34,558 bases of DNA from a virus. Its lineage: Duplodnaviria; Heunggongvirae; Uroviricota; Caudoviricetes; Peduoviridae. Shown piece after piece: positions 7,044 to 31,462 of the stretch (position 1 is the stretch's first letter; each line of letters begins with the position of its first letter). Position numbers and translations under genes: made by a program. A model generated the notes under the pieces. The model had not been told where the DNA came from and made no database searches. It saw only the letters and a list, made by a program, of their open reading frames with translations. The stretch lies in the IMG/VR virus record IMGVR_UViG_2585427767_000007; one strand, given 5' to 3'.

Positions 7044-7329
7044 AAATGTATGCGGTATGTATGGAAAACCGCACCATAACGAGAAAAATATCCAGTATGA
7101 ATCTGCTTAGATTAATAGATCGCAGAAGAGAGAAGAGGTATTGAGCCATGATGCCAATTTGTGAGATACCGAAGTGTTATGACAAAGATGCTTTTAATGT
7201 TACATTCCGTCATTACTCTTATTAATCATCTATTTCAATAGATTAGGATTAATCTGGCTATGTCATTGAAGATGCTCGATGTCTCGATATTTCTTAGCTA
7301 AAATAGGAGGCACTAAGGGAGAGGATGTT

Positions 7330-8388
7330 ATGTCTAAAATTTATGCTATTGACCTTTTTTGTGGTGCAGGTGGATTAACCCATGGTTTGATACAAGCAGG
7401 GATTGGTGTCATTGCTGGTATTGATTTAGATCCAGATTGCAGATGGGCGTATGAGCACAACAACAAAGCTAAATATATAAATTCAGATATTTGTGATGTA
7501 ACAGGTCAAGACCTTATGCGCTTGTGGCCAGAACAGGGAATAAGACTTCTTGCTGGTTGCGCCCCATGTCAGCCTTTTTCAAGTTATCGAAAAGGCAAGA
7601 TTGAATCTGCTGACGGCAAATGGAAACTCTTAGGTGAATTTGGACGGCTAGTCAAAGAATCTTCACCAGACTTGATAACCATGGAAAACGTACCAAGGTT
7701 ACAAAAGCATAAAATTTTCTTGGATTTTGTTAAAGACCTTAAGAAAGGTGGGTATAAGGTCTGGTATGGCGTCGTTGACTGTCAACAATATGGTGTGCCT
7801 CAGAAAAGGCAGCGATTAGTTTTACTGGCATCCAAGATCAGTGATGTTGTGTTGATTCCTCCAACACATTCAGAAGATAACTACGTAACAGTGAAAGATG
7901 CTATTTCTCATTTGCCAGAGATAGATTCAGGGCAAGCTGATGAGAAAGATCCATTACACGTTGCTCAGGGAATGAGCCAATTAAATCTCGAAAGGATTCG
8001 TCAATCAAAACCAGGTGGAACATGGAAGGATTGGGATCCTGAGTTGGTTGCTGCGTGCCATAAGAAAAGTAGTGGCAAAACTTACACAAGTGTATATGGA
8101 CGGATGAGATGGGATGAACCAGCTCCTACAATGACAACCCTATGTTTTGGTTTTGGTAATGGACGTTTTGGGCATCCTCAACAGGATAGGGCCATTTCTT
8201 TACGTGAGGCAGCTATCTTTCAAAGTTTTCCGGAGAACTATGTTTTTTCTGAACCAGGTGCAAAGATCACATTTGCAACAGTTGGTCGCTTGATTGGTAA
8301 TGCCGTTCCGGTAAAACTAGGTGAAGTTGTAGGAAAATCATTTATTAATAGTCTATCTGGGGGTAGTAGGAGAAATGGCGGAGCATAG
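7330..8388 (+). CDS. DNA (cytosine-5)-methyltransferase, Dcm-type
   Basis: Canonical C5-MTase motifs in canonical order: motif I FCGAGG (IDLFCGAGGLTHGL), motif IV PCQPFS (catalytic Cys), motif VI ENV, motif VIII QKRQR, motif X GNAV. ATG 7330 with GGGAGAGG Shine-Dalgarno; the track start at 7279 is a longer upstream extension. Lower GC than the phage backbone. Confidence 0.9.
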   Translation: MSKIYAIDLFCGAGGLTHGLIQAGIGVIAGIDLDPDCRWAYEHNNKAKYINSDICDVTGQDLMRLWPEQGIRLLAGCAPCQPFSSYRKGKIESADGKWKLLGEFGRLVKESSPDLITMENVPRLQKHKIFLDFVKDLKKGGYKVWYGVVDCQQYGVPQKRQRLVLLASKISDVVLIPPTHSEDNYVTVKDAISHLPEIDSGQADEKDPLHVAQGMSQLNLERIRQSKPGGTWKDWDPELVAACHKKSSGKTYTSVYGRMRWDEPAPTMTTLCFGFGNGRFGHPQQDRAISLREAAIFQSFPENYVFSEPGAKITFATVGRLIGNAVPVKLGEVVGKSFINSLSGGSRRNGGA

Positions 8389-10372
8389 CGAAGTTTTATC
8401 GCATGTTGATGAAAAAACACATACTTATGAGATGCTGGTTAGCTTGAGTGTTCTGGGGCATCTGGGGATCAATCTATATAGCAATGTTGCGGCAGTGATT
8501 ACGGAAACAGTAGCTAATGCATGGGATGCAGATGCTACAGAAGTGCATATAAAACTTTCTCCTGACAGAATCACTATTTCGGATAATGGTTTTGGAATGA
8601 CCATTCATGATATGAATTCGAAATATCTAACAGTTGGCTATCAAAAAAGAAATGATAAAAGCCAGCTATTAACTCCCAAGGGACGACTACCCATGGGCAG
8701 AAAAGGTATTGGTAAGTTATCTTTATTTTCTATTGCAAAAACTGTAACGGTTGAATCAATCAAGGATGGAGAACGACATGGTTTAGTTATGGAAGTTCCA
8801 AAAATAGAGCATGCAATCAAAAGTGGGGCTGGTAGATATTATCCAGAACCTTTGGATTCTGCTCAACTTTCTGTGAGTCAAGGAACATTAGTAACATTGC
8901 GTGATCTAAATCGATCTCGCATACCTGCCACTGCAACCGCTTTGCGTAAAAAGTTAGCAAGGCGTTTTTCTGTTATTGGTAGTAATGATTTTAGGGTCTT
9001 CGTTGATGGTGTAGAAGTAACAGCAAAGGAACGTGAGGACCTAAAACATGTTCAGTTCGTATGGGATATTAACTCGGGGGTAGATTTTAAAAAAGAATGT
9101 CCGGGGTTAATAACTGTAACTGACATTTCATCATTTTTGACAGAAAGTCAATTATTTAATCCTGAATGGAGCATTAAAGGGTGGATTGGTAGTATAAAAC
9201 AGCCTAGTCAGTTGAATACACCTGAAGGAAATCTAAATAGCATTGTTGTTTTATCTAGAGGTCGATTGTTTCAAGAGAACATTTTAGATGATATAAACGA
9301 TGGTGGGATATACACAAAGTATCTTACAGGGCAACTTGAGGCAGACTTCCTTGATACAGATGAAGATGAAGATATTGCAACAAGTGATAGACAACGAGTT
9401 GTTGAAGATGACCCTCGTTATCAATATTTGAAATCATTGGTTAAGATTGCCCTGAGAAAGGTTGCTGGTCAATGGAGCTCACTACGAGAAAAGCAAGGAG
9501 CAAAGGAAGCTAAAGAATCGAATCCGGTACTTGCGGAGTGGATCGGTTCATTAAAACCTGCTTCCCGAGGCTATGCAGAAAAAATGATCGCTCAAATTGA
9601 ATCGTTGCCTTTGGAGGATAAACCACAAGAGAAGAAGGAACTCTTTAAGCATGCAATTTTTGCATTTGAGCGCTTGCGTATTAAGGAAATGTCGCAGGAG
9701 CTAGCTGATGCTGTATTTTTTAATGCAGAAAAATTATTGCCATTGCTTGAGAAACAAGACGATTTAGAGGCAACATTATATTATGAGATAGCTAAGAGTC
9801 GTGTAGATGTTATTCAAAGCTTCAAAGGCCTAGTCGATAACGATGAAAAAGAAAAAGTATTGCAACGTTATCTTTTTGAACACCTTTGGTTATTAGACCC
9901 ATCATGGGAAAGAATTGATGGTTCTCCAATAATGGAGTCGCGTGTTAACCAAGAGTGGGACAAGATTGATGCTGGCCTGAGTGAAGAAGAGAAGAAAGGT
10001 CGTATGGATATAAAATATCGCTCATCTGCAGGTAAGCATATTATCATTGAACTTAAGAGAGCTAGCGTATTGACTTCTGTTGCAAATCTAGTCAGTCAGG
10101 GGAATAAGTACAGGCAGGCAGTAATTAAGTGTGCAAAAGCTGTTGACCCGGCCTCAACACCATCAATTGATGTGATTTTTGTCCTTGGTCGAGAGCCATC
10201 AGATTATGCGTTAGACCCATCTTATACTAACCTTCAGCTACAGTCAGTGAATGGTCGGATTGTTTATTATGATGGGCTAATTAATAGCGCACAGAGCTCG
10301 TATAGAGAATATACAGAGAGGCAGGCTACTGTTGCAAGGATTGCTGAAATCGTTAAAAAACTAGATGACTAG
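8375..10372 (+). CDS. GHKL/HATPase_c-type ATPase (665 aa) with C-terminal PD-(D/E)xK-like nuclease motif; candidate restriction/defence effector
   Basis: Bergerat-fold motifs near the N-terminus: N-box ETVANAWDA (ExxxNAxDA), G1 box DNGFGM, G2 box GRKGIGKLS. C-terminal region has D...ExK pattern (GRMDIKY...HIIIELKR). ATG 8375 overlaps the MTase stop by 14 nt with AGGAG upstream. Low GC. Confidence 0.8.
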   Translation: MAEHSEVLSHVDEKTHTYEMLVSLSVLGHLGINLYSNVAAVITETVANAWDADATEVHIKLSPDRITISDNGFGMTIHDMNSKYLTVGYQKRNDKSQLLTPKGRLPMGRKGIGKLSLFSIAKTVTVESIKDGERHGLVMEVPKIEHAIKSGAGRYYPEPLDSAQLSVSQGTLVTLRDLNRSRIPATATALRKKLARRFSVIGSNDFRVFVDGVEVTAKEREDLKHVQFVWDINSGVDFKKECPGLITVTDISSFLTESQLFNPEWSIKGWIGSIKQPSQLNTPEGNLNSIVVLSRGRLFQENILDDINDGGIYTKYLTGQLEADFLDTDEDEDIATSDRQRVVEDDPRYQYLKSLVKIALRKVAGQWSSLREKQGAKEAKESNPVLAEWIGSLKPASRGYAEKMIAQIESLPLEDKPQEKKELFKHAIFAFERLRIKEMSQELADAVFFNAEKLLPLLEKQDDLEATLYYEIAKSRVDVIQSFKGLVDNDEKEKVLQRYLFEHLWLLDPSWERIDGSPIMESRVNQEWDKIDAGLSEEEKKGRMDIKYRSSAGKHIIIELKRASVLTSVANLVSQGNKYRQAVIKCAKAVDPASTPSIDVIFVLGREPSDYALDPSYTNLQLQSVNGRIVYYDGLINSAQSSYREYTERQATVARIAEIVKKLDD

Positions 10373-10701: not shown

Positions 10702-11736
10702 TCAGCCGTTGTCAGTGTCCAGTGAGTAGTTTTTAAAGCGGATGACCTCCTGACCGAGCCAGCCGTTTATTTCCCGAATCCTGTCCTGTAGCGGGATAAG
10801 TTCATTGCGGACAAAGACCTTTGCCACTTTCTCAATATCACCCAGAGACCCGACGTTCTCCGGCTTGCCGCCCATCAACTGAAAGGGGATGCGGTGTGCG
10901 TCCAGCAGGTCAGCGGCGCTGGCTTTTTTGATATTAAAAAAATCGTCCTTCGTCGCCACTTCACTGAGCGGGATAATTTTAATGCCGTCGGCTTTCCCCT
11001 GTGGGGCATAGAGAAACAGGTTTTTAAAGTTATTGCGGCCTTTCGACTTCACCATGTTTTCGCGAAGCATTTCGATATCGTTGCGGTCCTGCACGGCATC
11101 GGTGACGTACATGATGTATCCGGCATGCGCGCCGTTTTCGTAATACTTGCGGCGGAACAGCGTGGCCGACTCATTCAGCCAGGCAGAGTTAAGGGCGCTG
11201 AGATATTCCGGCAGGCCGTACAGCTCCTGATTAATATCCGGCTCCAGCAGGTGAAACACGGAACCGGGCGCGAAAGGTGTCGGCTCGTTGAAGGACGGCA
11301 CCCACCAGTAAACATCCTCCTCCACGCCACGGCGGGGATATTTTGCCGGGGAGGTTTCCAGTCTGATGATCTTACCGGTGGTGCTGTAACGCTTTTCCAG
11401 AAACGCATTACCGAACACCAGAAAATCCAGCACAAAGCGGCTGAAATCCTGTTGCGAAAGCCACGGATGCGGGATAAATGTCGAGGCCAGAATATTGCGT
11501 TTAACGTAAATCGGTGAGCTGTGATGCACGGCAGCACGCAGGCTTTTCGCCAGACCGGTAAAGCTGACCGGCGGCTCATACCATCTGCCGTTACTGATGC
11601 ACTCGACGTAATCCAGAATGTCACGGCGGTCGAGTACCGGCACCGGCTCACCAAAGGTGAATGCCTCCATTTTCGGGGCGCTGGCGGTCATTTTTTTTGC
11701 CGCAGGTTGCGGTGTTTTCCCTTTTTTCTTGCTCAT
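10702..11736 (-). CDS. Q: Portal protein gpQ
   Basis: 344-aa minus-strand ORF at the canonical position next to cos; matches remembered P2 gpQ size. Start ATG overlaps the terminase stop by 1 nt. Confidence 0.9.
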   Translation of the reverse strand: MSKKKGKTPQPAAKKMTASAPKMEAFTFGEPVPVLDRRDILDYVECISNGRWYEPPVSFTGLAKSLRAAVHHSSPIYVKRNILASTFIPHPWLSQQDFSRFVLDFLVFGNAFLEKRYSTTGKIIRLETSPAKYPRRGVEEDVYWWVPSFNEPTPFAPGSVFHLLEPDINQELYGLPEYLSALNSAWLNESATLFRRKYYENGAHAGYIMYVTDAVQDRNDIEMLRENMVKSKGRNNFKNLFLYAPQGKADGIKIIPLSEVATKDDFFNIKKASAADLLDAHRIPFQLMGGKPENVGSLGDIEKVAKVFVRNELIPLQDRIREINGWLGQEVIRFKNYSLDTDNG

Positions 11737-25143: not shown

Positions 25144-25671
25144 ATGCAGCATTTAAAAAATATTACGGCGGGGAATCCAAAAACGGTTGAACAATATCAA
25201 TTGACAAAGGGTTTTGATGTTGTCTGGTTTTTTTCAGAAGATGGTAAGAACTGGTACGAAGAACAAAAGTATTTTGCTGATGACACGATAAAAATAGCGT
25301 ACGACAAAGATAATATTATCCGCTATGTGGAAAAGGATGTGACAGCTATCAGACCGGATGGATTAAGTGTTGTTGAAGTGGCGGATATTACTGCTAACCG
25401 ACGGGCGGACATTTCAGGGGGCTGGATGTTTAAGGACGGCAAAGTGATTAAACGCATTTATACGGCAGAGGAATTGCTGCAGCAGGCAGAAAACCGGAAA
25501 GCCAGACTTCTTGCAGATGCTGAATCCGTGATTTTGCCGCTGGAGCGCGCGGTCAGACTGAACATGGCAACAGATGAGGAGCGTAGCCGACTGGATGCAT
25601 GGGAGCGTTACAGCGTTCTGGTCAGTCGTGTGGATCCTGCAAATCCTGAATGGCCGGAAATGCCGCAATAA
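25144..25671 (+). CDS. G: Tail fibre assembly chaperone gpG
   Basis: 175 aa immediately after H; matches P2 gpG size. Confidence 0.8.
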
Positions 25672-25892
25672 GTTGTATGATCTCTGGAGTGAGCAAACGT
25701 ATCTATGGCACAGAGTAAAGCCTAATCTGACAGGCCGCTCTGTGTCTGGAGTAGATTTTAGTAAAGCATTATTTTATTAGTGCAAATTCTAATCAATACA
25801 TTTTATGTATATGATATCCTGCAGACTTTAATGACTTGGTTTAGGCTAACCAGATAACACTGAAGGAATATTTTTGATAATTAAGGTACGGT

Positions 25893-26486
25893 ATGTTTAC
25901 TAAGCGACGATTAAAAAATATTAACTGGGAGGCAAGTTCAGTGATTCTTGCTATGGTTCTCTTTGTTGGAAATATATTTTATACAAATCATCGTGATGAT
26001 ATAAGCATGGAGGCTGAGAGGGACAGTATCAGAACAATGTTTGCATATGAAATCGCTAATAACCATCGCGCTCTCACTTTTCTTGATAAAACGAGACATA
26101 TTGGCTTTGACGAAAATTCGGAGCATTTTGTTGGCGAGCCTTTTGCCATTAATGTCAAATCATTAGGGGGGCCTCGCTTACAGATTGCATTAAACCAGAC
26201 TGATAAAGTGTTTAAATCCTACTTCAGCGAATTAAGTAAGCTTGGTAAAGAGGATGTTACTCTTCTTATGGACTATTACCATGAGCAAAGCATCCTGCTG
26301 GAGCGTGTAAAATCTACGTTACAGAAGATGAAAAGTGGTAATGATATTAAAGTTGATATTGATGGTTACTTATTAGAAGAACACTTCATGAATGAGCTTA
26401 ATCTTTCTAATATTTTGCTTAAACGCTATAGCCATTTGTTGTCACAATACGCTAAAGAACATAAAACAAAAGATTTACATAATTGA
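25893..26486 (+). CDS. AT-rich moron at the P2 Z/fun locus: 197-aa hypothetical protein with N-terminal membrane anchor
   Basis: ATG 25893 with AAGG upstream. Single hydrophobic segment SSVILAMVLFVGNIF near the N-terminus. Markedly lower GC than the flanking tail genes; followed by a strong terminator. Confidence 0.65.
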   Translation: MFTKRRLKNINWEASSVILAMVLFVGNIFYTNHRDDISMEAERDSIRTMFAYEIANNHRALTFLDKTRHIGFDENSEHFVGEPFAINVKSLGGPRLQIALNQTDKVFKSYFSELSKLGKEDVTLLMDYYHEQSILLERVKSTLQKMKSGNDIKVDIDGYLLEEHFMNELNLSNILLKRYSHLLSQYAKEHKTKDLHN

Positions 26487-26695
26487 TAATCTGCTAATGG
26501 TTATTCATGGGGTAACTATGTTTTATATGTAATCCAACTCAGATGAATTATTGATTCTGGATAATAACCGCAGAGCGGCATATACCCTGACAGGCAAATG
26601 TCCGCTTCTTGTTCAAAGCAGACTGTCAGATTTGATAACTTTTGGGCTATGTAAATTGTCAGTCGGAAAATGAGTGAGTTCAAATCAGGACAGGC

Positions 26696-26734
26696 GGGGG
26701 GAATTGCCCCCCCTTTTTTTTTTTTTTTTTTTTT
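26696..26734 (+). terminator. Intrinsic terminator: G6-loop-C7 hairpin followed by a T21 homopolymer
   Basis: GGGGGG-AATTG-CCCCCCC (26696-26713) followed by 21 consecutive T (26714-26734), downstream of the moron ORF and about 80 nt upstream of FI. Confidence 0.6.
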
Positions 26735-26816
26735 CCCCTGACCAGCCAGGTCAAATAGCGTCTCATGCTCTGCACAACAGAAAATAGTTGCACCCATTAA
26801 CCACGGAGTTAAACGG

Positions 26817-28007
26817 ATGAGTGACTATCATCACGGCGTGCAGGTGCTGGAGATTAACGACGGCACCCGCGTCATTTCCACCGTATCCACGGCCATTGTC
26901 GGCATGGTCTGCACGGCCAGCGATGCGGATGCGGAAACCTTCCCCCTCAATAAACCGGTGCTGATTACCAATGTGCAGAGCGCAATTGCAAAGGCCGGTA
27001 AAACAGGCACGCTGGCGGCATCGTTGCAGGCCATCGCTGACCAGTCAAAACCGGTCACCGTTGTCGTGCGTGTGGAAGACGGCACCGGCGAAGACGAAGA
27101 AACGAAGCTCGCGCAGACCGTTTCCAATATCATCGGCACCACCGACGAAAACGGTCAGTACACCGGACTGAAAGCCCTGCTGGCGGCGGAGTCGGTAACC
27201 GGTGTTAAACCGCGTATTCTCGGCGTGCCGGGACTGGATACCAAAGAGGTGGCTGTTGCACTGGCATCTGTCTGTCAGAAGTTGCGCGCTTTCGGGTATA
27301 TCAGCGCATGGGGCTGTAAAACCATTTCCGAGGTGAAAGCCTACCGCCAGAATTTCAGCCAGCGTGAGCTGATGGTCATCTGGCCGGATTTCCTCGCATG
27401 GGATACGGTCACCAGTACCACCGCCACCGCGTATGCCACCGCCCGTGCACTGGGGCTGCGTGCCAAAATCGACCAGGAGCAGGGCTGGCATAAAACGCTG
27501 TCCAATGTCGGGGTGAACGGTGTTACCGGCATCAGCGCCTCTGTATTCTGGGATTTGCAGGAGTCCGGCACTGATGCTGACCTGCTGAACGAGGCAGGCG
27601 TCACAACGCTGGTTCGCCGCGACGGTTTCCGTTTCTGGGGTAACCGTACCTGCTCCGATGACCCACTTTTCCTCTTTGAAAACTACACCCGCACCGCGCA
27701 GGTGCTGGCCGACACGATGGCTGAGGCGCACATGTGGGCGGTGGACAAGCCCATCACCGCAACGCTGATTCGCGACATCGTTGACGGCATCAATGCCAAA
27801 TTCCGTGAGCTGAAAACAAACGGCTATATCGTGGATGCGACCTGCTGGTTCAGCGAAGAATCCAACGATGCGGAAACCCTCAAGGCCGGAAAACTGTATA
27901 TCGACTACGACTATACACCGGTGCCTCCTCTCGAAAACCTGACCCTGCGCCAGCGTATTACCGATAAATACCTGGCAAATCTGGTCACCTCGGTTAACAG
28001 CAATTAA
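26817..28007 (+). CDS. FI: Tail sheath protein gpFI
   Basis: 396 aa; size and position match P2 gpFI. Confidence 0.9.
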   Translation: MSDYHHGVQVLEINDGTRVISTVSTAIVGMVCTASDADAETFPLNKPVLITNVQSAIAKAGKTGTLAASLQAIADQSKPVTVVVRVEDGTGEDEETKLAQTVSNIIGTTDENGQYTGLKALLAAESVTGVKPRILGVPGLDTKEVAVALASVCQKLRAFGYISAWGCKTISEVKAYRQNFSQRELMVIWPDFLAWDTVTSTTATAYATARALGLRAKIDQEQGWHKTLSNVGVNGVTGISASVFWDLQESGTDADLLNEAGVTTLVRRDGFRFWGNRTCSDDPLFLFENYTRTAQVLADTMAEAHMWAVDKPITATLIRDIVDGINAKFRELKTNGYIVDATCWFSEESNDAETLKAGKLYIDYDYTPVPPLENLTLRQRITDKYLANLVTSVNSN

Positions 28008-28870: not shown

Positions 28871-29022
28871 CGTTTCCGAAAAATCTCTCGGTCGATGACC
28901 TGATGGCGGATGTGGCAGTGATATTTCACTGGCCGCCATCAGAACTGTATCCCATGAGCCTGACCGAACTCATCACATGGCGCGAAAAGGCACTCCGGCG
29001 AAGCGGAAACACGAATGAGTAA
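28595..29022 (+). CDS. gpE+E' fusion produced by programmed -1 ribosomal frameshift
   Basis: Slippery heptamer T_TTT_TTG at 28843-28849 near the 3' end of E. The -1 frame from 28849 is open for 57 codons to a TAA at 29020-29022, overlapping the T start; predicted fusion is about 141-142 aa, as remembered for P2 E+E'. Confidence 0.6.
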
Positions 29023-31462
29023 CAATGTAAAATTACAGGTATTGCTCAGGGCTGTTGACCAGGCATCCCGCCCGTTTAAATCCATCCGTACAGCGAGCAG
29101 GTCGCTGTCGGGGGATATCCGGGAAACACAAAAATCACTGCGCGAGCTGAACGGTCACGCATCCCGTATTGAGGGATTCCGCAAGACCAGTGCACAGCTC
29201 GCTGTGACTGGTCATGCACTTGAAAAGGCACGGCAGGAGGCCGAAGCCCTTGCCACACAGTTTAAAAATACCGAACGTCCAACCCGTGCTCAGGCGAAAG
29301 TGCTGGAATCCGCAAAGCGTGCGGCGGAGGACTTACAGGCGAAATATAACCGCCTGACGGATTCTGTTAAACGCCAGCAGCGGGAACTGGCCGCTGTGGG
29401 AATTAATACCCGCAATCTTGCACATGATGAGCAGGGGCTGAAAAACCGTATCAGTGAAACCACCGCACAACTTAACCGTCAGCGCGATGCACTGGCGCGT
29501 GTCAGTGCACAACAGGCAAAACTTAACGCAGTAAAACAGCGTTATCAGGCCGGAAAGGAACTGGCCGGAAATATGGCCTCAGTGGGCGCTGCCGGTGTGG
29601 GGATTGCTGCTGCGGGAACGATGGCCGGAGTTAAGCTGCTGATGCCCGGTTATGAGTTTGCGCAGAAAAACTCAGAATTGCAGGCCGTGCTCGGAGTGGC
29701 AAAAGACTCCGCCGAAATGGCCGCGCTCCGCAAGCAGGCGCGCCAGCTCGGCGATAATACCGCCGCCTCGGCGGATGATGCGGCCGGTGCGCAGATTATC
29801 ATTGCGAAAGCGGGTGGAGATGCTGCGGCTATTCAGGCGGCAACGCCGGTCACGCTGAATATGGCACTGGCGAATCAGCGGTCGATGGAAGAAAACGCGC
29901 AACTGTTACTGGGGACTAAGGCATCCTTTCAACTGTCAAATGATGATGTCAGCCATGTGGGCGACGTGTTGTCGGCAACGATGAATAAGTCGGCGGCTGA
30001 TTTTCAGGGACTCAGTGATGCACTGACTTACCTCGGGCCGGTTGCGAGGACGGCAGGTGTAAGTCTTGAGCAGGCAGCGGCCATGACAGGTGTGCTGCAT
30101 GACAATAACATCAGGGGGTCAATGGCGGGTACGGGTAGCAGTGCCGTTGTCACCCGATTACAGGCACCGACTGGAAAAGCATGGGATGCACTCAAAGAGC
30201 TTGGCGTTAAAACCTCGGACAAAAAGGGAAATATGCGTCCGTTGTTCACCATTCTGAAAGAGATTCAGGCCAGCTTTGATAAACACAAGCTGGGAACGTC
30301 TCAGAAGGGGGAATACCTTAAAACCATTTTTGGTGAGGAAGCCCTGAAATCAGCGAACGTTTTACTGGCAGCGGCAGCAAGCGGAAAACTGGATACGCTG
30401 ACCGCCACGCTGAAAGCCTCGGACGGTAAAACGGAAGAGCTGGTTAAAATCATGCAGGATAACCTCGGCGGTGACTTTAAGGAGTTTCAGTCCGCTTATG
30501 AGGCGGTGGGGACTGACCTGTTTGACCAGCAGGAAGGCACACTGCGTAAGCTCACGCAGACGGCCACAAAGTATGTGTTAAAACTCGACGGCTGGATACA
30601 GAAAAACAAATCACTGGCGTCAACCATTGGCCTCATTGCCGGTGGCGCACTGGCGCTGACTGGTGTCATCGGTGCCATTGGTCTTGTAGCCTGGCCGGTT
30701 ATCACCGGCATCAATGCCATTATCGCGGCAGCAGGCGCAATGGGGGCAATCTTCACGACGGTTGGTAGTGCCGTTATGACGGCCATCGGGGCGATTAGCT
30801 GGCCGGTTGTGGCTGTGGTGGCCGCCATTGTCGCCGGGGCGTTGCTTATCCGTAAATACTGGGAGCCTGTCAGCGCATTCTTCGGCGGTGTGGTTGAAGG
30901 GCTGAAAGCAGCATTTGCGCCGGTGGGGGAACTGTTCACGCCACTTAAGCCGGTGTTTGACTGGCTGGGTGAAAAGTTACAGGCCGCGTGGCAGTGGTTT
31001 AAAAACCTGATTGCCCCGGTTAAAGCCACCCAGGACACCCTGAACCGTTGCCGTGACACGGGCGTCATGTTCGGGCAGGCACTGGCTGACGCGCTGATGC
31101 TGCCGCTTAATGCGTTCAACAAACTGCGCAGCGGAATTGACTGGGTACTGGAAAAACTCGGTGTTATCAACAAAGAGTCAGACACACTTGACCAGACCGT
31201 CGCCAGAACTCAAGCCGCCACGTATGGCAGCGGTGGTTATATTCCGGCGACCAGCTCTTATGCAGGCTATCAGGCTTATCAGCCGGTTACGGCACCGGCT
31301 GGCCGCTCTTATGTGGACCAGAGTAAAAACGAATATCACATCAGCCTGACGGGTGGTACTGCGCCGGGGACACAGCTTGACCGCCAGTTACAGGATGCGC
31401 TCGAAAAATACGAGCGGGATAAACGTGCGCGCGCCCGTGCCAGCATGATGCATGACGGTTAA
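29015..31462 (+). CDS. T: Tail tape-measure protein gpT
   Basis: 815 aa, alanine/glycine-rich with hydrophobic central segment; size identical to remembered P2 gpT. Confidence 0.9.
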   Translation: MSNNVKLQVLLRAVDQASRPFKSIRTASRSLSGDIRETQKSLRELNGHASRIEGFRKTSAQLAVTGHALEKARQEAEALATQFKNTERPTRAQAKVLESAKRAAEDLQAKYNRLTDSVKRQQRELAAVGINTRNLAHDEQGLKNRISETTAQLNRQRDALARVSAQQAKLNAVKQRYQAGKELAGNMASVGAAGVGIAAAGTMAGVKLLMPGYEFAQKNSELQAVLGVAKDSAEMAALRKQARQLGDNTAASADDAAGAQIIIAKAGGDAAAIQAATPVTLNMALANQRSMEENAQLLLGTKASFQLSNDDVSHVGDVLSATMNKSAADFQGLSDALTYLGPVARTAGVSLEQAAAMTGVLHDNNIRGSMAGTGSSAVVTRLQAPTGKAWDALKELGVKTSDKKGNMRPLFTILKEIQASFDKHKLGTSQKGEYLKTIFGEEALKSANVLLAAAASGKLDTLTATLKASDGKTEELVKIMQDNLGGDFKEFQSAYEAVGTDLFDQQEGTLRKLTQTATKYVLKLDGWIQKNKSLASTIGLIAGGALALTGVIGAIGLVAWPVITGINAIIAAAGAMGAIFTTVGSAVMTAIGAISWPVVAVVAAIVAGALLIRKYWEPVSAFFGGVVEGLKAAFAPVGELFTPLKPVFDWLGEKLQAAWQWFKNLIAPVKATQDTLNRCRDTGVMFGQALADALMLPLNAFNKLRSGIDWVLEKLGVINKESDTLDQTVARTQAATYGSGGYIPATSSYAGYQAYQPVTAPAGRSYVDQSKNEYHISLTGGTAPGTQLDRQLQDALEKYERDKRARARASMMHDG

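What the first reader, a model, noticed from the sequence alone, without database searches (positions are those of the whole stretch)
25727..26696. Short repeated motif CTGACAGGC flanking the Z/fun-locus moron
CTGACAGGC occurs at 25727-25735 (upstream of the moron) and 26587-26595 (downstream), and GACAGGC again at 26689-26695 next to the terminator hairpin. The first copy is followed by CGCTCTG, whose reverse complement CAGAGCG sits 9 nt upstream of the second copy. Three copies of a 7-9-mer in 1 kb is more than expected by chance and may mark recombination joints of moron exchange or shared regulatory sites.
Basis: seen in the sequence. Interest (0 to 1): 0.35.

Follow-up and report, generated by a model that had tools for sequence, protein, structure and literature searches.

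The report
Boundary recombination sites of P2 moron
The repeated 9-mer is not significant in itself, but it sits inside two ~36-base inverted hairpin sites at which P2-like phages join interchangeable cargo genes to their backbone; the same sites bound a small recombinase gene elsewhere, which gives a testable candidate for how these defence-gene hotspots are swapped.

Summary
As a statistic they mean nothing: 94% of shuffles of the region contain an exact 9-mer direct repeat, and the 7-mer is not enriched.

Their position does matter. Across 42 different cargo types in P2-like phages, the conserved/variable junctions fall at window 25744-25746 and 26596-26608, each inside the spacer of a hairpin-type site with arms GTCCGCT/AGCGGAC.
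- Copy 1 is part of the conserved left site. It reads CTGACAGTC in 35 of 42 types.
- Copy 2 occurs only in this cargo type. It abuts the right site and pairs with that site's outer arm.
- Copy 3 is the foot of the terminator and is unrelated.

Inverted repeats around fun(Z) were reported by Nilsson et al. 2004. I know this only through a secondary citation.

What may be new:
- The sites belong to a twin-hairpin family found in Enterobacterales and Alphaproteobacteria.
- A ~720-bp module encoding a 200-aa tyrosine recombinase ends in the same half-sites. It joins at least 14 different neighbours at exactly the same spacer positions.

I infer site-specific module exchange, similar to Acinetobacter dif modules or integron cassettes, with the recombinase acting in trans. 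Catalysis is not shown. Several predictions failed or were inconclusive: no empty site, no cargo shared between contexts, and no significant stem covariation.

The parts
25144..25671 (+). Gene G (tail fibre assembly), last gene of the left conserved flank
   Evidence: 175-aa ORF; annotated as G / tail fibre assembly in all matching phages
25724..25746 (.). Left boundary site 'B', backbone half: outer arm AATCTGACAG, arm GCCGCTCT and spacer GTGTC. Contains motif copy 1 (25727-25735).
   Evidence: Matches the consensus AATCTGACAGTCCGCTCTGTGCC with 2 mismatches; it is the only such match in the window and 0 are expected. Conserved in 42 cargo types, and similarity ends at 25744-46.
25747..25759 (.). 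Cargo-side half of site B, degenerate in this cargo type (TGGAGTAGATTTT, against the consensus AGGAGCGGACGTT)
   Evidence: Consensus. The window's left site no longer folds (-2.1 kcal/mol, z +0.37) while the canonical site gives -9.2, z -3.6.
25745..26596 (+). Variable cargo module (34% G+C) carrying one ORF, 25893-26486 (197 aa, phrog_3829, unknown function)
   Evidence: Composition. ORF. PHROGs hit E=2.5e-136; no Pfam, NCBIfam or PADLOC hit. The same cargo occupies the same place in 13 held loci and about 201 E. coli genomes.
26571..26579 (.). CAGAGCGGC, the exact complement of the site-B arm at 25734-25742. It may be a displaced inner arm of site B.
   Evidence: I12. It carries C where the consensus has A, matching the window-specific T-to-G change at 25734. 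This reading is inference.
26587..26595 (.). Motif copy 2. Its CTGACAG part is the complement of CTGTCAG at 26623-26629 and lengthens the right-hand hairpin. Specific to this cargo type.
   Evidence: The fold of 26583-26636 pairs the two; the bottom strand gives -8.8 kcal/mol, z -2.5. No other of the 42 cargo types has CTGACAG in its last 60 nt.
26597..26608 (.). Right boundary site 'A', cargo-side arm (AATGTCCGCTTC)
   Evidence: Varies with cargo type around the consensus AAyGTCCGCTyy
26609..26632 (.). Right boundary site 'A', backbone half: spacer TTGTTCA, arm AAGCAGAC and outer arm TGTCAGATT
   Evidence: Consensus TCGCTCAAAGCAGACTGTCAGATT. It ends a constant 183-184 nt before the FI start in nearly all loci.
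26689..26695 (+). Motif copy 3 (GACAGGC), in the conserved right flank; its last bases (GGC) overlap the start of the terminator-like stem. Not related to the boundary sites.
   Evidence: P2 has GGCAGGT at this position.
26693..26735 (+). Intrinsic terminator GGCGGGGGGAATTGCCCCCCC followed by a run of 21 T
   Evidence: 8 terminator-like calls against 0.9 expected, most of them at this hairpin
26817..28007 (+). Gene FI (tail sheath), first gene of the right conserved flank
   Evidence: 396-aa ORF; annotated as tail sheath in relatives

Best explanation
The motif copies are pieces of the two inverted, hairpin-forming boundary sites that bracket the exchangeable cargo between genes G and FI of P2-like phages. 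Each site has 7-9-bp inverted arms (GTCCGCT / AGCGGAC) around a spacer. The spacer is GTGCCA in the left site 'B' and TCGCTCA in the right site 'A'. In the phage, each site is extended by an outer arm (AATCTGACA / TGTCAGATT).

The outer half of each site, including the spacer, belongs to the phage backbone. The inner arm travels with the cargo. Every cargo type is therefore joined to the backbone at the same two spacer positions.

Copy 1 is the outer arm plus the first bases of the B arm. Copy 2 is an extra complement of A's outer arm found only in this cargo type. Copy 3 is part of the terminator.

Proposed mechanism (inferred): modules are exchanged by site-specific recombination at the B and A spacers. 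B-with-B and A-with-A events would give cassette exchange, much as Acinetobacter dif modules or engineered heterospecific lox/FRT sites do. The catalyst would be a ~200-aa tyrosine recombinase with only a catalytic domain, supplied in trans by the host. Its own gene is a ~720-bp module ending in the same half-sites.

Shown here: the junction positions, the site family and its distribution, and the boundaries of the recombinase module. Inferred: that recombination occurs at the spacers, and that this enzyme performs it.

The confidence of 0.5 is for the whole statement including site-specific exchange. I put about 0.9 on the anatomical part alone and about 0.35 on this particular enzyme.
For: - **Junctions.** In 42 cargo types the left flank is invariant up to ...GTCCGCTCTGTGCC and the right flank from TCGCTCAAAGCAGACTGTCAGATT onward. 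In between lie unrelated cargos of 0.8-3.9 kb. P2's own fun(Z) is bracketed in the same way.
- **Arrays.** Long cargos are divided by internal joints of the form A-hairpin, 15-18 nt, B-hairpin. One sub-module of L083 equals the whole cargo of L074.
- **Occurrence outside P2.** The B hairpin and the twin A-spacer-B unit occur in Pantoea, Klebsiella, Citrobacter and Enterobacter, in Alphaproteobacteria, and in 1100 of 5426 E. coli genomes. Loop and flanking bases left free in the search pattern are nevertheless conserved.
- **Recombinase module.** A PF00589-only recombinase of 200 aa lies in 5 of 123 hairpin-centred loci. My rough estimate for random 8-kb windows is about 0.03.
- **Module boundaries.** The gene is always preceded by [context-specific arm]|TCGCTCA-TAAGGGAC-45 nt-ATG. 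It is always followed by ...CAGCAGCC-CTGTGCC|[ArrAGCGGACrTT + context]. This holds in at least 14 upstream and at least 15 downstream contexts. In E. coli genomes, homology to the module starts at the first base of TCGCTCA or within 8 nt of it.
- **Distant homologue.** A 57%-identical alphaproteobacterial homologue also lies between an A-type and a B-type site.
- **Orientation.** No cargo is found in both orientations, as expected if the B and A spacers are incompatible with each other.
- **Literature.** PMC8987985 cites Nilsson et al. 2004 for inverted repeats flanking fun that enable site-specific exchange. PMC13586616 says the recombination processes at the P2/P4 hotspots still need to be elucidated.
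Against: - No recombination event is shown and no enzyme activity has been tested.
- The window encodes no such recombinase.
- No empty site (backbone halves joined without cargo) exists in 5426 E. coli genomes or in the first 120 IMG/VR pattern hits.
- No P2 cargo was found in a non-P2 context at the nucleotide level, so transfer between backbone types is not documented here.
- Exchange among P2-like phages needs only homologous recombination in the 90-100% identical G and FI flanks.
- The left and right ends of a cargo are no more complementary to each other than to the ends of other cargos (0.667 against 0.660).
- Arm substitutions are not significantly compensatory (33 double changes against 27 expected; 96 of 1000 shuffles reach this).
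- In Alphaproteobacteria the twin hairpins lie beside ordinary chromosomal genes at high copy number, like REP elements.
- In the window itself the left site is degenerate and does not fold.
Confidence: 0.5

Rival explanations
1. The 9-mer repeat is chance, and the hairpins are passive REP-like or terminator-like elements such as mRNA 3'-end stabilisers or insulators at the edges of the moron. Cargo is swapped between co-infecting or resident P2-like phages by ordinary homologous recombination in the conserved G and FI flanks. The 'junction' is then simply where conserved sequence ends.
For: - A 9-mer pair is expected by chance.
- The flanks are 90-100% identical among phages that carry different cargos.
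- No empty site and no cargo outside P2 were found.
- The canonical B hairpin is stable (-9.2 kcal/mol, z -3.6) and lies 52 nt after the G stop, where a 3'-end stabiliser would sit.
- In Alphaproteobacteria the twin hairpins behave like intergenic REPs.
Against: - Neither site is followed by a T-run. The real terminator is a separate hairpin at 26693-26735.
- Homologous recombination does not explain how unrelated new cargos always enter at the same two nucleotides.
- It does not explain why cargo ends carry their own copies of the arms.
- It does not explain why the same half-sites bound a recombinase gene at the same positions in at least 14 unrelated contexts.
- It does not explain why long cargos are divided by complete twin sites.
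- The arm sequence is conserved rather than merely paired, which fits protein recognition better than a generic hairpin.
Confidence: 0.28
2. The sites work like integron attC sites. A circular cargo carrying one composite palindromic site folds as single-stranded DNA and is inserted into a single long palindrome in the phage by one strand exchange that replication then resolves. This would split the phage site into B and A.
For: - As a single strand, the twin unit folds into one long imperfect hairpin (-16.3 kcal/mol, z -3.2), which resembles attC.
- Cargo ends read AAC...GTT next to the arms.
- A C·A mismatch at one arm position recurs in A-type sites, in 18 of 61. This would give the strand asymmetry that attC sites use.
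- Joining the two backbone halves would give a near-perfect 19-bp palindrome (read directly from the sequences).
Against: - The predicted empty phage site was not found.
- The recombinase lacks the features of IntI. The integron-integrase model scores 15.9 bits against a cut-off of 265.
- There is no significant covariation.
- Each cargo has half-sites at both ends rather than one attC at its 3' end.
Confidence: 0.1
3. The two CTGACAGGC copies are a 9-bp target-site duplication made by transposition of the cargo.
For: Direct 9-bp repeats flank the AT-rich insert, and inverted GCCGCTCTG / CAGAGCGGC lie just inside them.
Against: - After copy 2 the sequence (AAATGTCCGC...) does not continue what follows copy 1 in phages with other cargos (CGCTCTGTGCC...).
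- No transposase is present.
- The inverted pieces are not terminal.
- All other cargo types use the same left junction without any second copy.
Confidence: 0.02
4. The sites are dif-like sites used by the host XerC/XerD recombinases, as in Acinetobacter pdif modules or IMEX elements.
For: Modules alternate and are bounded by short sites of the form arm-spacer-arm, with no recombinase inside the cargo. This is the architecture described for dif modules in PMC13141974.
Against: - From my own knowledge of E. coli dif (GGTGCGCATAA-TGTATA-TTATGTTAAAT), the arms GTCCGCT/AGCGGAC bear no resemblance to the XerC or XerD half-sites.
- Both arms of a site are the same sequence, whereas Xer sites are asymmetric.
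- A dedicated recombinase gene is bounded by the sites.
Confidence: 0.03

Closest known systems
Inverted repeats flanking the Z/fun cargo of P2-like coliphages (Nilsson, Karlsson & Haggard-Ljungquist 2004, Mol Biol Evol 21:1). I could not read the paper and know it only through PMC8987985.
   Same: Same locus (between G and FI). Foreign AT-rich cargo flanked by inverted repeats that were proposed to allow site-specific exchange between bacteria and phages. The window is one more example.
   Different: I cannot tell how much of the following was already described there: the junction at the spacer of a 9-6-9 hairpin, the twin A-spacer-B unit, its spread to Alphaproteobacteria, and the recombinase module bounded by the same half-sites. 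In the papers I could open, I found no enzyme named for this exchange. The review that cites Nilsson names none in the cited passage, and the 2026 study says the recombination processes still need to be elucidated.
Acinetobacter dif modules (pdif sites, XerCD)
   Same: DNA is a chain of alternating module types joined by short sites of the form arm-spacer-arm. The backbone is itself a module. Accessory modules carry no recombinase. Reactions occur between sites with matching spacers (PMC13141974).
   Different: The site sequence is different. The two arms are identical rather than XerC and XerD types. The candidate enzyme is a dedicated 200-aa recombinase, not XerCD. The host range is Enterobacterales and their phages, whereas that paper calls the dif module system unique to Acinetobacter.
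Integron gene cassettes (attC x attI, IntI)
   Same: Promoter-poor single-gene cassettes, often encoding defence functions, inserted at a fixed platform. The sites are imperfect palindromes that can fold into a long hairpin. A recombinase gene sits next to a half-site where variable cassettes are joined.
   Different: There is no IntI-type integrase. Each cassette has half-sites at both ends. The site sequence is conserved, whereas attC is conserved mainly in structure. The recombinase gene lies between two sites rather than at one end of an array.
REP / REPIN elements with RAYT transposases
   Same: Short palindromes occurring as doublets that fold into a long hairpin. High intergenic copy number in some genomes (here, Alphaproteobacteria). 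A protein-coding 'autonomous' form flanked by the same repeats, alongside many short non-coding forms.
   Different: The linked enzyme is a tyrosine recombinase (PF00589), not an HUH Y1 transposase. There is no 5' GTAG. In E. coli the median is one place per genome, and these lie in accessory regions.

Membership tests
P2-like Z/fun (G-FI) cargo hotspot with flanking inverted repeats | Variable, foreign-looking DNA between tail genes G and FI | tested here: met
   Cargo 25745-26596 is 34% G+C, against 46% (G) and 57% (FI). 42 different cargos occupy the same place.
P2-like Z/fun (G-FI) cargo hotspot with flanking inverted repeats | Cargo bracketed by inverted repeats shared by phages that carry different cargos | tested here: met
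   AATCTGACAG...CTGTCAGATT plus the GTCCGCT/AGCGGAC arms. Present around fun(Z) of P2 itself.
Integron cassette / attC | IntI-type integrase adjacent to an attI site | tested here: not met
   There is no recombinase at the locus. The linked small recombinase scores 15.9 bits against the integron-integrase model, whose cut-off is 265.
Integron cassette / attC | One attC with RYYYAAC...GTTRRRY cores at the 3' end of each cassette | tested here: not met
   Each cargo has a half-site at both ends. Only the AAC/GTT triplets resemble the cores.
dif module (XerCD) system | Sites made of XerC and XerD binding arms (11-6-11) | tested here: not met
   The arms are GTCCGCT/AGCGGAC on both sides. The comparison with the dif consensus is from my own knowledge.
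dif module (XerCD) system | Alternating module types joined at site spacers, the backbone being one of the modules | tested here: met
   Backbone, recombinase gene or short spacer alternates with cargo; the joints lie at GTGCC| and |TCGCTCA.
REP/REPIN with RAYT | High-copy intergenic palindromes in the host genome | tested here: inconclusive
   Median of 1 place per E. coli genome, but several per 8 kb in alphaproteobacterial MAGs.
REP/REPIN with RAYT | Associated Y1 (HUH) transposase | tested here: not met
   Among the ORF families most often shared by the 123 loci, the only recombinase-type family is a tyrosine recombinase, and no transposase-like family recurred. Only the recombinase family was scanned against Pfam, where it hits PF00589 alone.
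Intrinsic (rho-independent) terminator | G+C-rich stem followed by a T-run | tested here: not met
   Sites B and A have no T-run and were not called. The feature is met only by the separate hairpin at 26693-26735.
Transposon insertion with 9-bp target-site duplication | The sequence after the right copy continues the uninterrupted target | tested here: not met
   the continuation differs, and there is no transposase.
Simple tyrosine-recombinase core site (lox/FRT/dif type) | Two inverted binding arms around a 6-8-bp spacer, with exchange at the spacer so that products are arm hybrids | tested here: met
   9-6-9 geometry. Hybrid sites (constant outer arm, variable inner arm) in 42 P2 contexts and at least 14 recombinase-module contexts.
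Simple tyrosine-recombinase core site (lox/FRT/dif type) | A cognate recombinase binds and recombines the site | not testable with these tools
   Only genomic linkage is available.

The most novel reading that the evidence does not exclude
The B and A hairpins are the recombination sites of a previously unrecognised module-exchange system, run by a ~200-aa tyrosine recombinase with only a catalytic domain (E. coli WP_001305361 family, present in 904 of 5426 E. coli genomes). The recombinase gene (A-rec-B) would be the autonomous form. The abundant twin hairpins (A-spacer-B) would be its miniature derivatives. The P2 G/FI defence hotspot would be one docking platform, loaded in trans. This would amount to a third natural cassette system alongside integrons and Acinetobacter dif modules, spanning Gamma- and Alphaproteobacteria and their phages.
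Probability: 0.35. Interest if true: 0.85.

Novelty: new variant of a known kind. Interest (0 to 1): 0.55.

Why it matters
P2-like prophages are a major reservoir of anti-phage defence genes. The G/FI (Z/fun) locus is one of their two classic hotspots. The latest large survey states that the recombination processes that swap these genes still need to be elucidated (PMC13586616).

This analysis contributes three things:
- exact crossover positions, at the two spacers;
- a site family that can be searched for in any genome to delimit cargo modules;
- a specific candidate enzyme.

Together these turn the question into a simple two-plasmid experiment. If the system works as inferred, it is also a natural counterpart of recombinase-mediated cassette exchange, and it would explain how single defence genes move without carrying any mobility gene.

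If it does not work that way, the result still settles the finding: the repeated 9-mer is a by-product of known boundary repeats, not a signal in its own right.

Tried and rejected
- **Target-site duplication.** Rejected, because the sequence after copy 2 does not continue the target.
- **Cassette-specific terminal inverted repeats.** Anecdotal matches (for example L071 and L041) vanished in a permutation test. Identity between a cargo's own two ends is 0.667, against 0.660 for ends of different cargos (p=0.33).
- **Compensatory changes in the hairpin stems.** A few examples exist (GTCTGC/GCAGAC, GTCCAC/GTGGGC). Overall they are not significant: 96 of 1000 shuffles for B and 224 of 1000 for A reach the observed count.
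- **Empty site.** A synthetic junction of this cargo type and a generic backbone-to-backbone junction gave no full-length match in 5426 E. coli genomes.
- **Cargo inversion between B and A.** There were 0 opposite-strand matches among the cargos.
- **The same cargo outside P2.** None was found for the window cargo, for fun(Z), for the cargo next to the recombinase in strain 83972, or between the P2 cargos and the recombinase loci I held.
- **Other copies of the site in the window,** for example at the other hotspot upstream of Q. None was found.
- **Rfam.** Nothing beyond two sub-threshold chance hits in the window and nothing in 8 hairpin loci.
- **Literature search by sequence string.** No relevant paper was found. 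Nilsson 2004, Odegrip 2006 and Christie & Calendar 2016 are not held.
- **Function of the cargo protein.** Only a PHROG of unknown function.
- **An apparent empty site in E. coli (H115).** It turned out to be an invertase-type rearranged tail-fibre region.
Full report
**Observation.** CTGACAGGC lies at 25727-25735 and 26587-26595. GACAGGC lies at 26689-26695. CGCTCTG follows copy 1, and its complement CAGAGCG ends 9 nt before copy 2. The statistical claim fails. One exact direct 9-mer pair in 970 nt is what chance gives: 94% of 2000 dinucleotide shuffles have at least one, with a mean of 3.75, and 68 of 70 such windows of this sequence have one. The 7-mer is not enriched, with 5 occurrences against 3.9 expected.

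**Comparison with relatives.** The window is a P2-like prophage. The region lies between gene G (stop at 25671) and gene FI (start at 26817). I compared it with 12 GenBank phage loci and 80 IMG/VR loci chosen by similarity of G, of which 83 contain both anchors. They hold 42 unrelated cargo types of about 0.8-3.9 kb. Similarity to the window ends at 25744 on the left in nearly every case and resumes at 26594-26601 on the right in most.

The left flank always ends ...AATCTGACAGTCCGCTCTGTGCC, starting 53 or 41 nt after the G stop. The right flank always begins TCGCTCAAAGCAGACTGTCAGATT, ending 183-184 nt before the FI start codon. Just inside these, each cargo begins with a version of ArrAGCGGACrTT and ends with a version of AAyGTCCGCTyy. 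Each junction therefore lies in the spacer of a small palindrome:
- left site B: GTCCGCTCT-GTGCCA-GGAGCGGAC;
- right site A: GTCCGCTCC-TCGCTCA-AAGCAGAC.

The outer half and spacer are constant, and the inner arm goes with the cargo. P2's own fun(Z) is bracketed in the same way. Phage P37 lacks the whole module.

**What the three copies are.**
- Copy 1 is the outer arm plus the first bases of the B arm. It reads CTGACAGTC in 35 of 42 cargo types, and only the window's type has G at 25734.
- Copy 2 exists only in this cargo type. It abuts the inner arm of site A, and its CTGACAG pairs with CTGTCAG (26623-29), lengthening the A hairpin (bottom strand -8.8 kcal/mol, z -2.5).
- Copy 3 lies in the conserved right flank at the foot of the terminator GGCGGGGGGAATTGCCCCCCC-T21. 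It is conserved in most relatives but is GGCAGGT in P2.

In this cargo type the inner arm of site B is degenerate (TGGAGTAGAT), and the site no longer folds (-2.1 kcal/mol against -9.2 for the canonical site). A well-matched arm, CAGAGCGGC, lies 828 nt downstream. It even carries the change that compensates the T-to-G substitution at 25734. I read this as a B site split by, or rebuilt around, the present ORF. That reading is inference. No genome has the corresponding ORF-less form. A 9-bp target-site duplication is excluded, because the sequence after copy 2 does not continue the target.

**The sites are a family, not a P2 peculiarity.** Long P2 cargos are divided by internal joints made of an A hairpin, 15-18 nt, and a B hairpin. 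One sub-module of L083 is the whole cargo of L074. None of them has P2 genes. They come from Pantoea, Mixta, Klebsiella, Citrobacter, Enterobacter, Leclercia and Phytobacter, and from many alphaproteobacterial MAGs.

Positions left free in the pattern are conserved (loop GTGCCA, flanks AT...AT). The usual form is a twin unit, A-spacer-B. I collected 128 distinct units; the A loop is TCGCTCA in enterics and ACCCCCA or GGGTCA in alphas. As a single strand, the twin unit folds into one long hairpin (-16.3 kcal/mol, z -3.2).

In E. coli the unit is not a high-copy REP. It occurs in 1100 of 5426 genomes, with a median of one place each, in accessory regions. In strain 83972, hairpins, one of them with the P2-type outer arm AATCTGACAG, bracket successive gene modules. 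Rfam has no matching family.

**A recombinase bounded by the same half-sites.** Among the ORF families most often shared by the 123 loci, the only recombinase-type family is a 200-aa tyrosine recombinase. It has a PF00589 catalytic domain only. Its nearest models are Xer-type and fall far below their cut-offs. It is present in 5 loci, including a 57%-identical alphaproteobacterial copy.

In every enterobacterial copy (E. coli, Phytobacter, a Klebsiella plasmid and IMG/VR contigs), the gene is preceded by [context-specific arm]|TCGCTCA-TAAGGGAC-AACCATAC-TCAAATCTCC...GGAGATTTGAgtATG. It is followed by TAA-GGTTGTCAGGGCTGCAACAGCAGCC-CTGTGCC|[ArrAGCGGACrTT + context]. There are at least 14 different upstream and at least 15 different downstream neighbours.

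In E. coli genomes the gene occurs in 904 of 5426. Homology between contexts starts at, or within 8 nt upstream of, the first base of TCGCTCA. The alphaproteobacterial homologue also lies between an A-type and a B-type site.

The recombinase gene thus occupies the place of the 15-18-nt spacer of a twin unit, and also the place of the entire phage backbone in P2. DNA in these regions is a chain of alternating segments. One kind is the backbone, the recombinase gene or the short spacer. The other kind is cargo. They are joined by B sites (backbone-side to cargo) and A sites (cargo to backbone-side).

**Mechanism: what is shown and what is inferred.** Shown: the constant junction positions, the hybrid sites, the arrays, the family's distribution, and the boundaries of the recombinase module. 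Inferred: the arms are binding sites and the spacers are crossover regions of this recombinase. B-with-B and A-with-A reactions between molecules would exchange or add modules, and the phage would be served in trans, since the window has no such gene. The absence of any cargo in both orientations fits two mutually incompatible spacers.

**Evidence against the model, or missing.**
- No empty site was found.
- No P2 cargo was found in another context.
- The two ends of one cargo do not covary.
- There is no significant compensatory change in the stems. This result argues for sequence recognition rather than mere folding, and it weakens an attC-like reading.
- The alphaproteobacterial copies look like ordinary intergenic repeats.
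- Exchange among P2-like phages could run on homologous recombination in the flanks alone.

I therefore put about 0.9 on 'the motif copies are parts of, or accidents around, the boundary sites'. I put about 0.5 on site-specific exchange at the spacers, and about 0.35 on this particular enzyme.

[quoted passage not shown] 2004 (PMC8987985). I could not read the original. Later hotspot papers do not mention repeats or hairpins. The 2026 survey says the recombination processes still need to be elucidated.

The closest mechanistic parallel is the Acinetobacter dif-module system. It has alternating module types, a backbone that is itself a module, and reactions between sites with matching spacers, and it is said to be unique to that genus (PMC13141974). 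Here the site sequence and the candidate enzyme are different. Integron cassettes and REPIN/RAYT elements share some features, but each fails a defining test (see the membership table).

**Verdict.** The feature in the window is a member of a known class, the Z/fun boundary repeats. The wider site family and the recombinase module bounded by the same half-sites may be new, and they make an open question directly testable.

Noticed in passing
L083 cargo 960-1150; L110 1009-1198; L215 3272-3442: A MITE-like insert of about 170 nt, with terminal inverted repeats GGCTGTGTGAAAA / TTTTCACACAGCC, sits inside the loop of an A-type hairpin in three unrelated loci. There is an apparent duplication of CGCTCA. 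This looks like a small element that targets the site spacer.
   Followed up: partly
First ~60 nt of cargos L078, L073, L082 (and partly L030); also non-P2 loci L140 and L108: Some cargo modules share an extended conserved stretch directly after the B site: GACATC-n5-TGTGTTAATCAAyGGrGAGCAGGTCA. It might be a promoter or an accessory binding site. It is absent from the window's cargo.
   Followed up: partly
window 26713-26733: The terminator is followed by an unusually long run of 21 T. Relatives with the same cargo differ by 1 nt in intergenic length (1144 against 1145), so the run may vary by slippage.
   Followed up: no
L093-L212 (alphaproteobacterial MAGs: Pseudolabrys, Xanthobacteraceae, Hyphomicrobiales): Twin hairpins of the form ATGTCCGCTTT-ACCCCCA/GGGTCA-AAAGCGGACAT + ~21 nt (often GTGCAGTGCAC...) + ATGTCCGCTwwGTGCCAAAAGCGGACAT occur several times per 8 kb, beside ordinary chromosomal genes. 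I found no Rfam family and no paper for them.
   Followed up: partly
E. coli hits H117-H134: Many P2-like prophages match the window only from 26736 onward. They carry a 'recombinase family protein' directly upstream of FI, presumably the tail-fibre invertase type. They lack sites B and A and the terminator. Phage P37 (L011) also lacks the whole module, with a 133-nt G-FI gap.
   Followed up: partly
window 7279-10372: Two large ORFs (369 and 665 aa) lie between the replication gene region and the Q-like gene at 10702-11736. They presumably form the cargo of the other classic P2 hotspot. No copy of the B or A site is present there.
   Followed up: no
window 30865-30873 (- strand): A third exact copy of CTGACAGGC lies inside the 815-aa ORF at 29015-31462. 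I judge it a chance occurrence; it accounts for the 3 observed against 0.27 expected in the whole window.
   Followed up: no
E. coli THO-015, NZ_AP022549.1 1664987-1665532 (hit H196): A P2-type locus whose B and A backbone halves lie only about 546 bp apart. This is the shortest cargo seen and could be close to an empty site.
   Followed up: no
Upstream of the recombinase start codon, e.g. L214 4309-4338: A 10-bp inverted repeat, TCAAATCTCC-cacattgca-GGAGATTTGA, ends 2 nt before the recombinase start codon and so probably covers its ribosome-binding region. It is conserved in all enterobacterial copies and could be a translational control hairpin.
   Followed up: no
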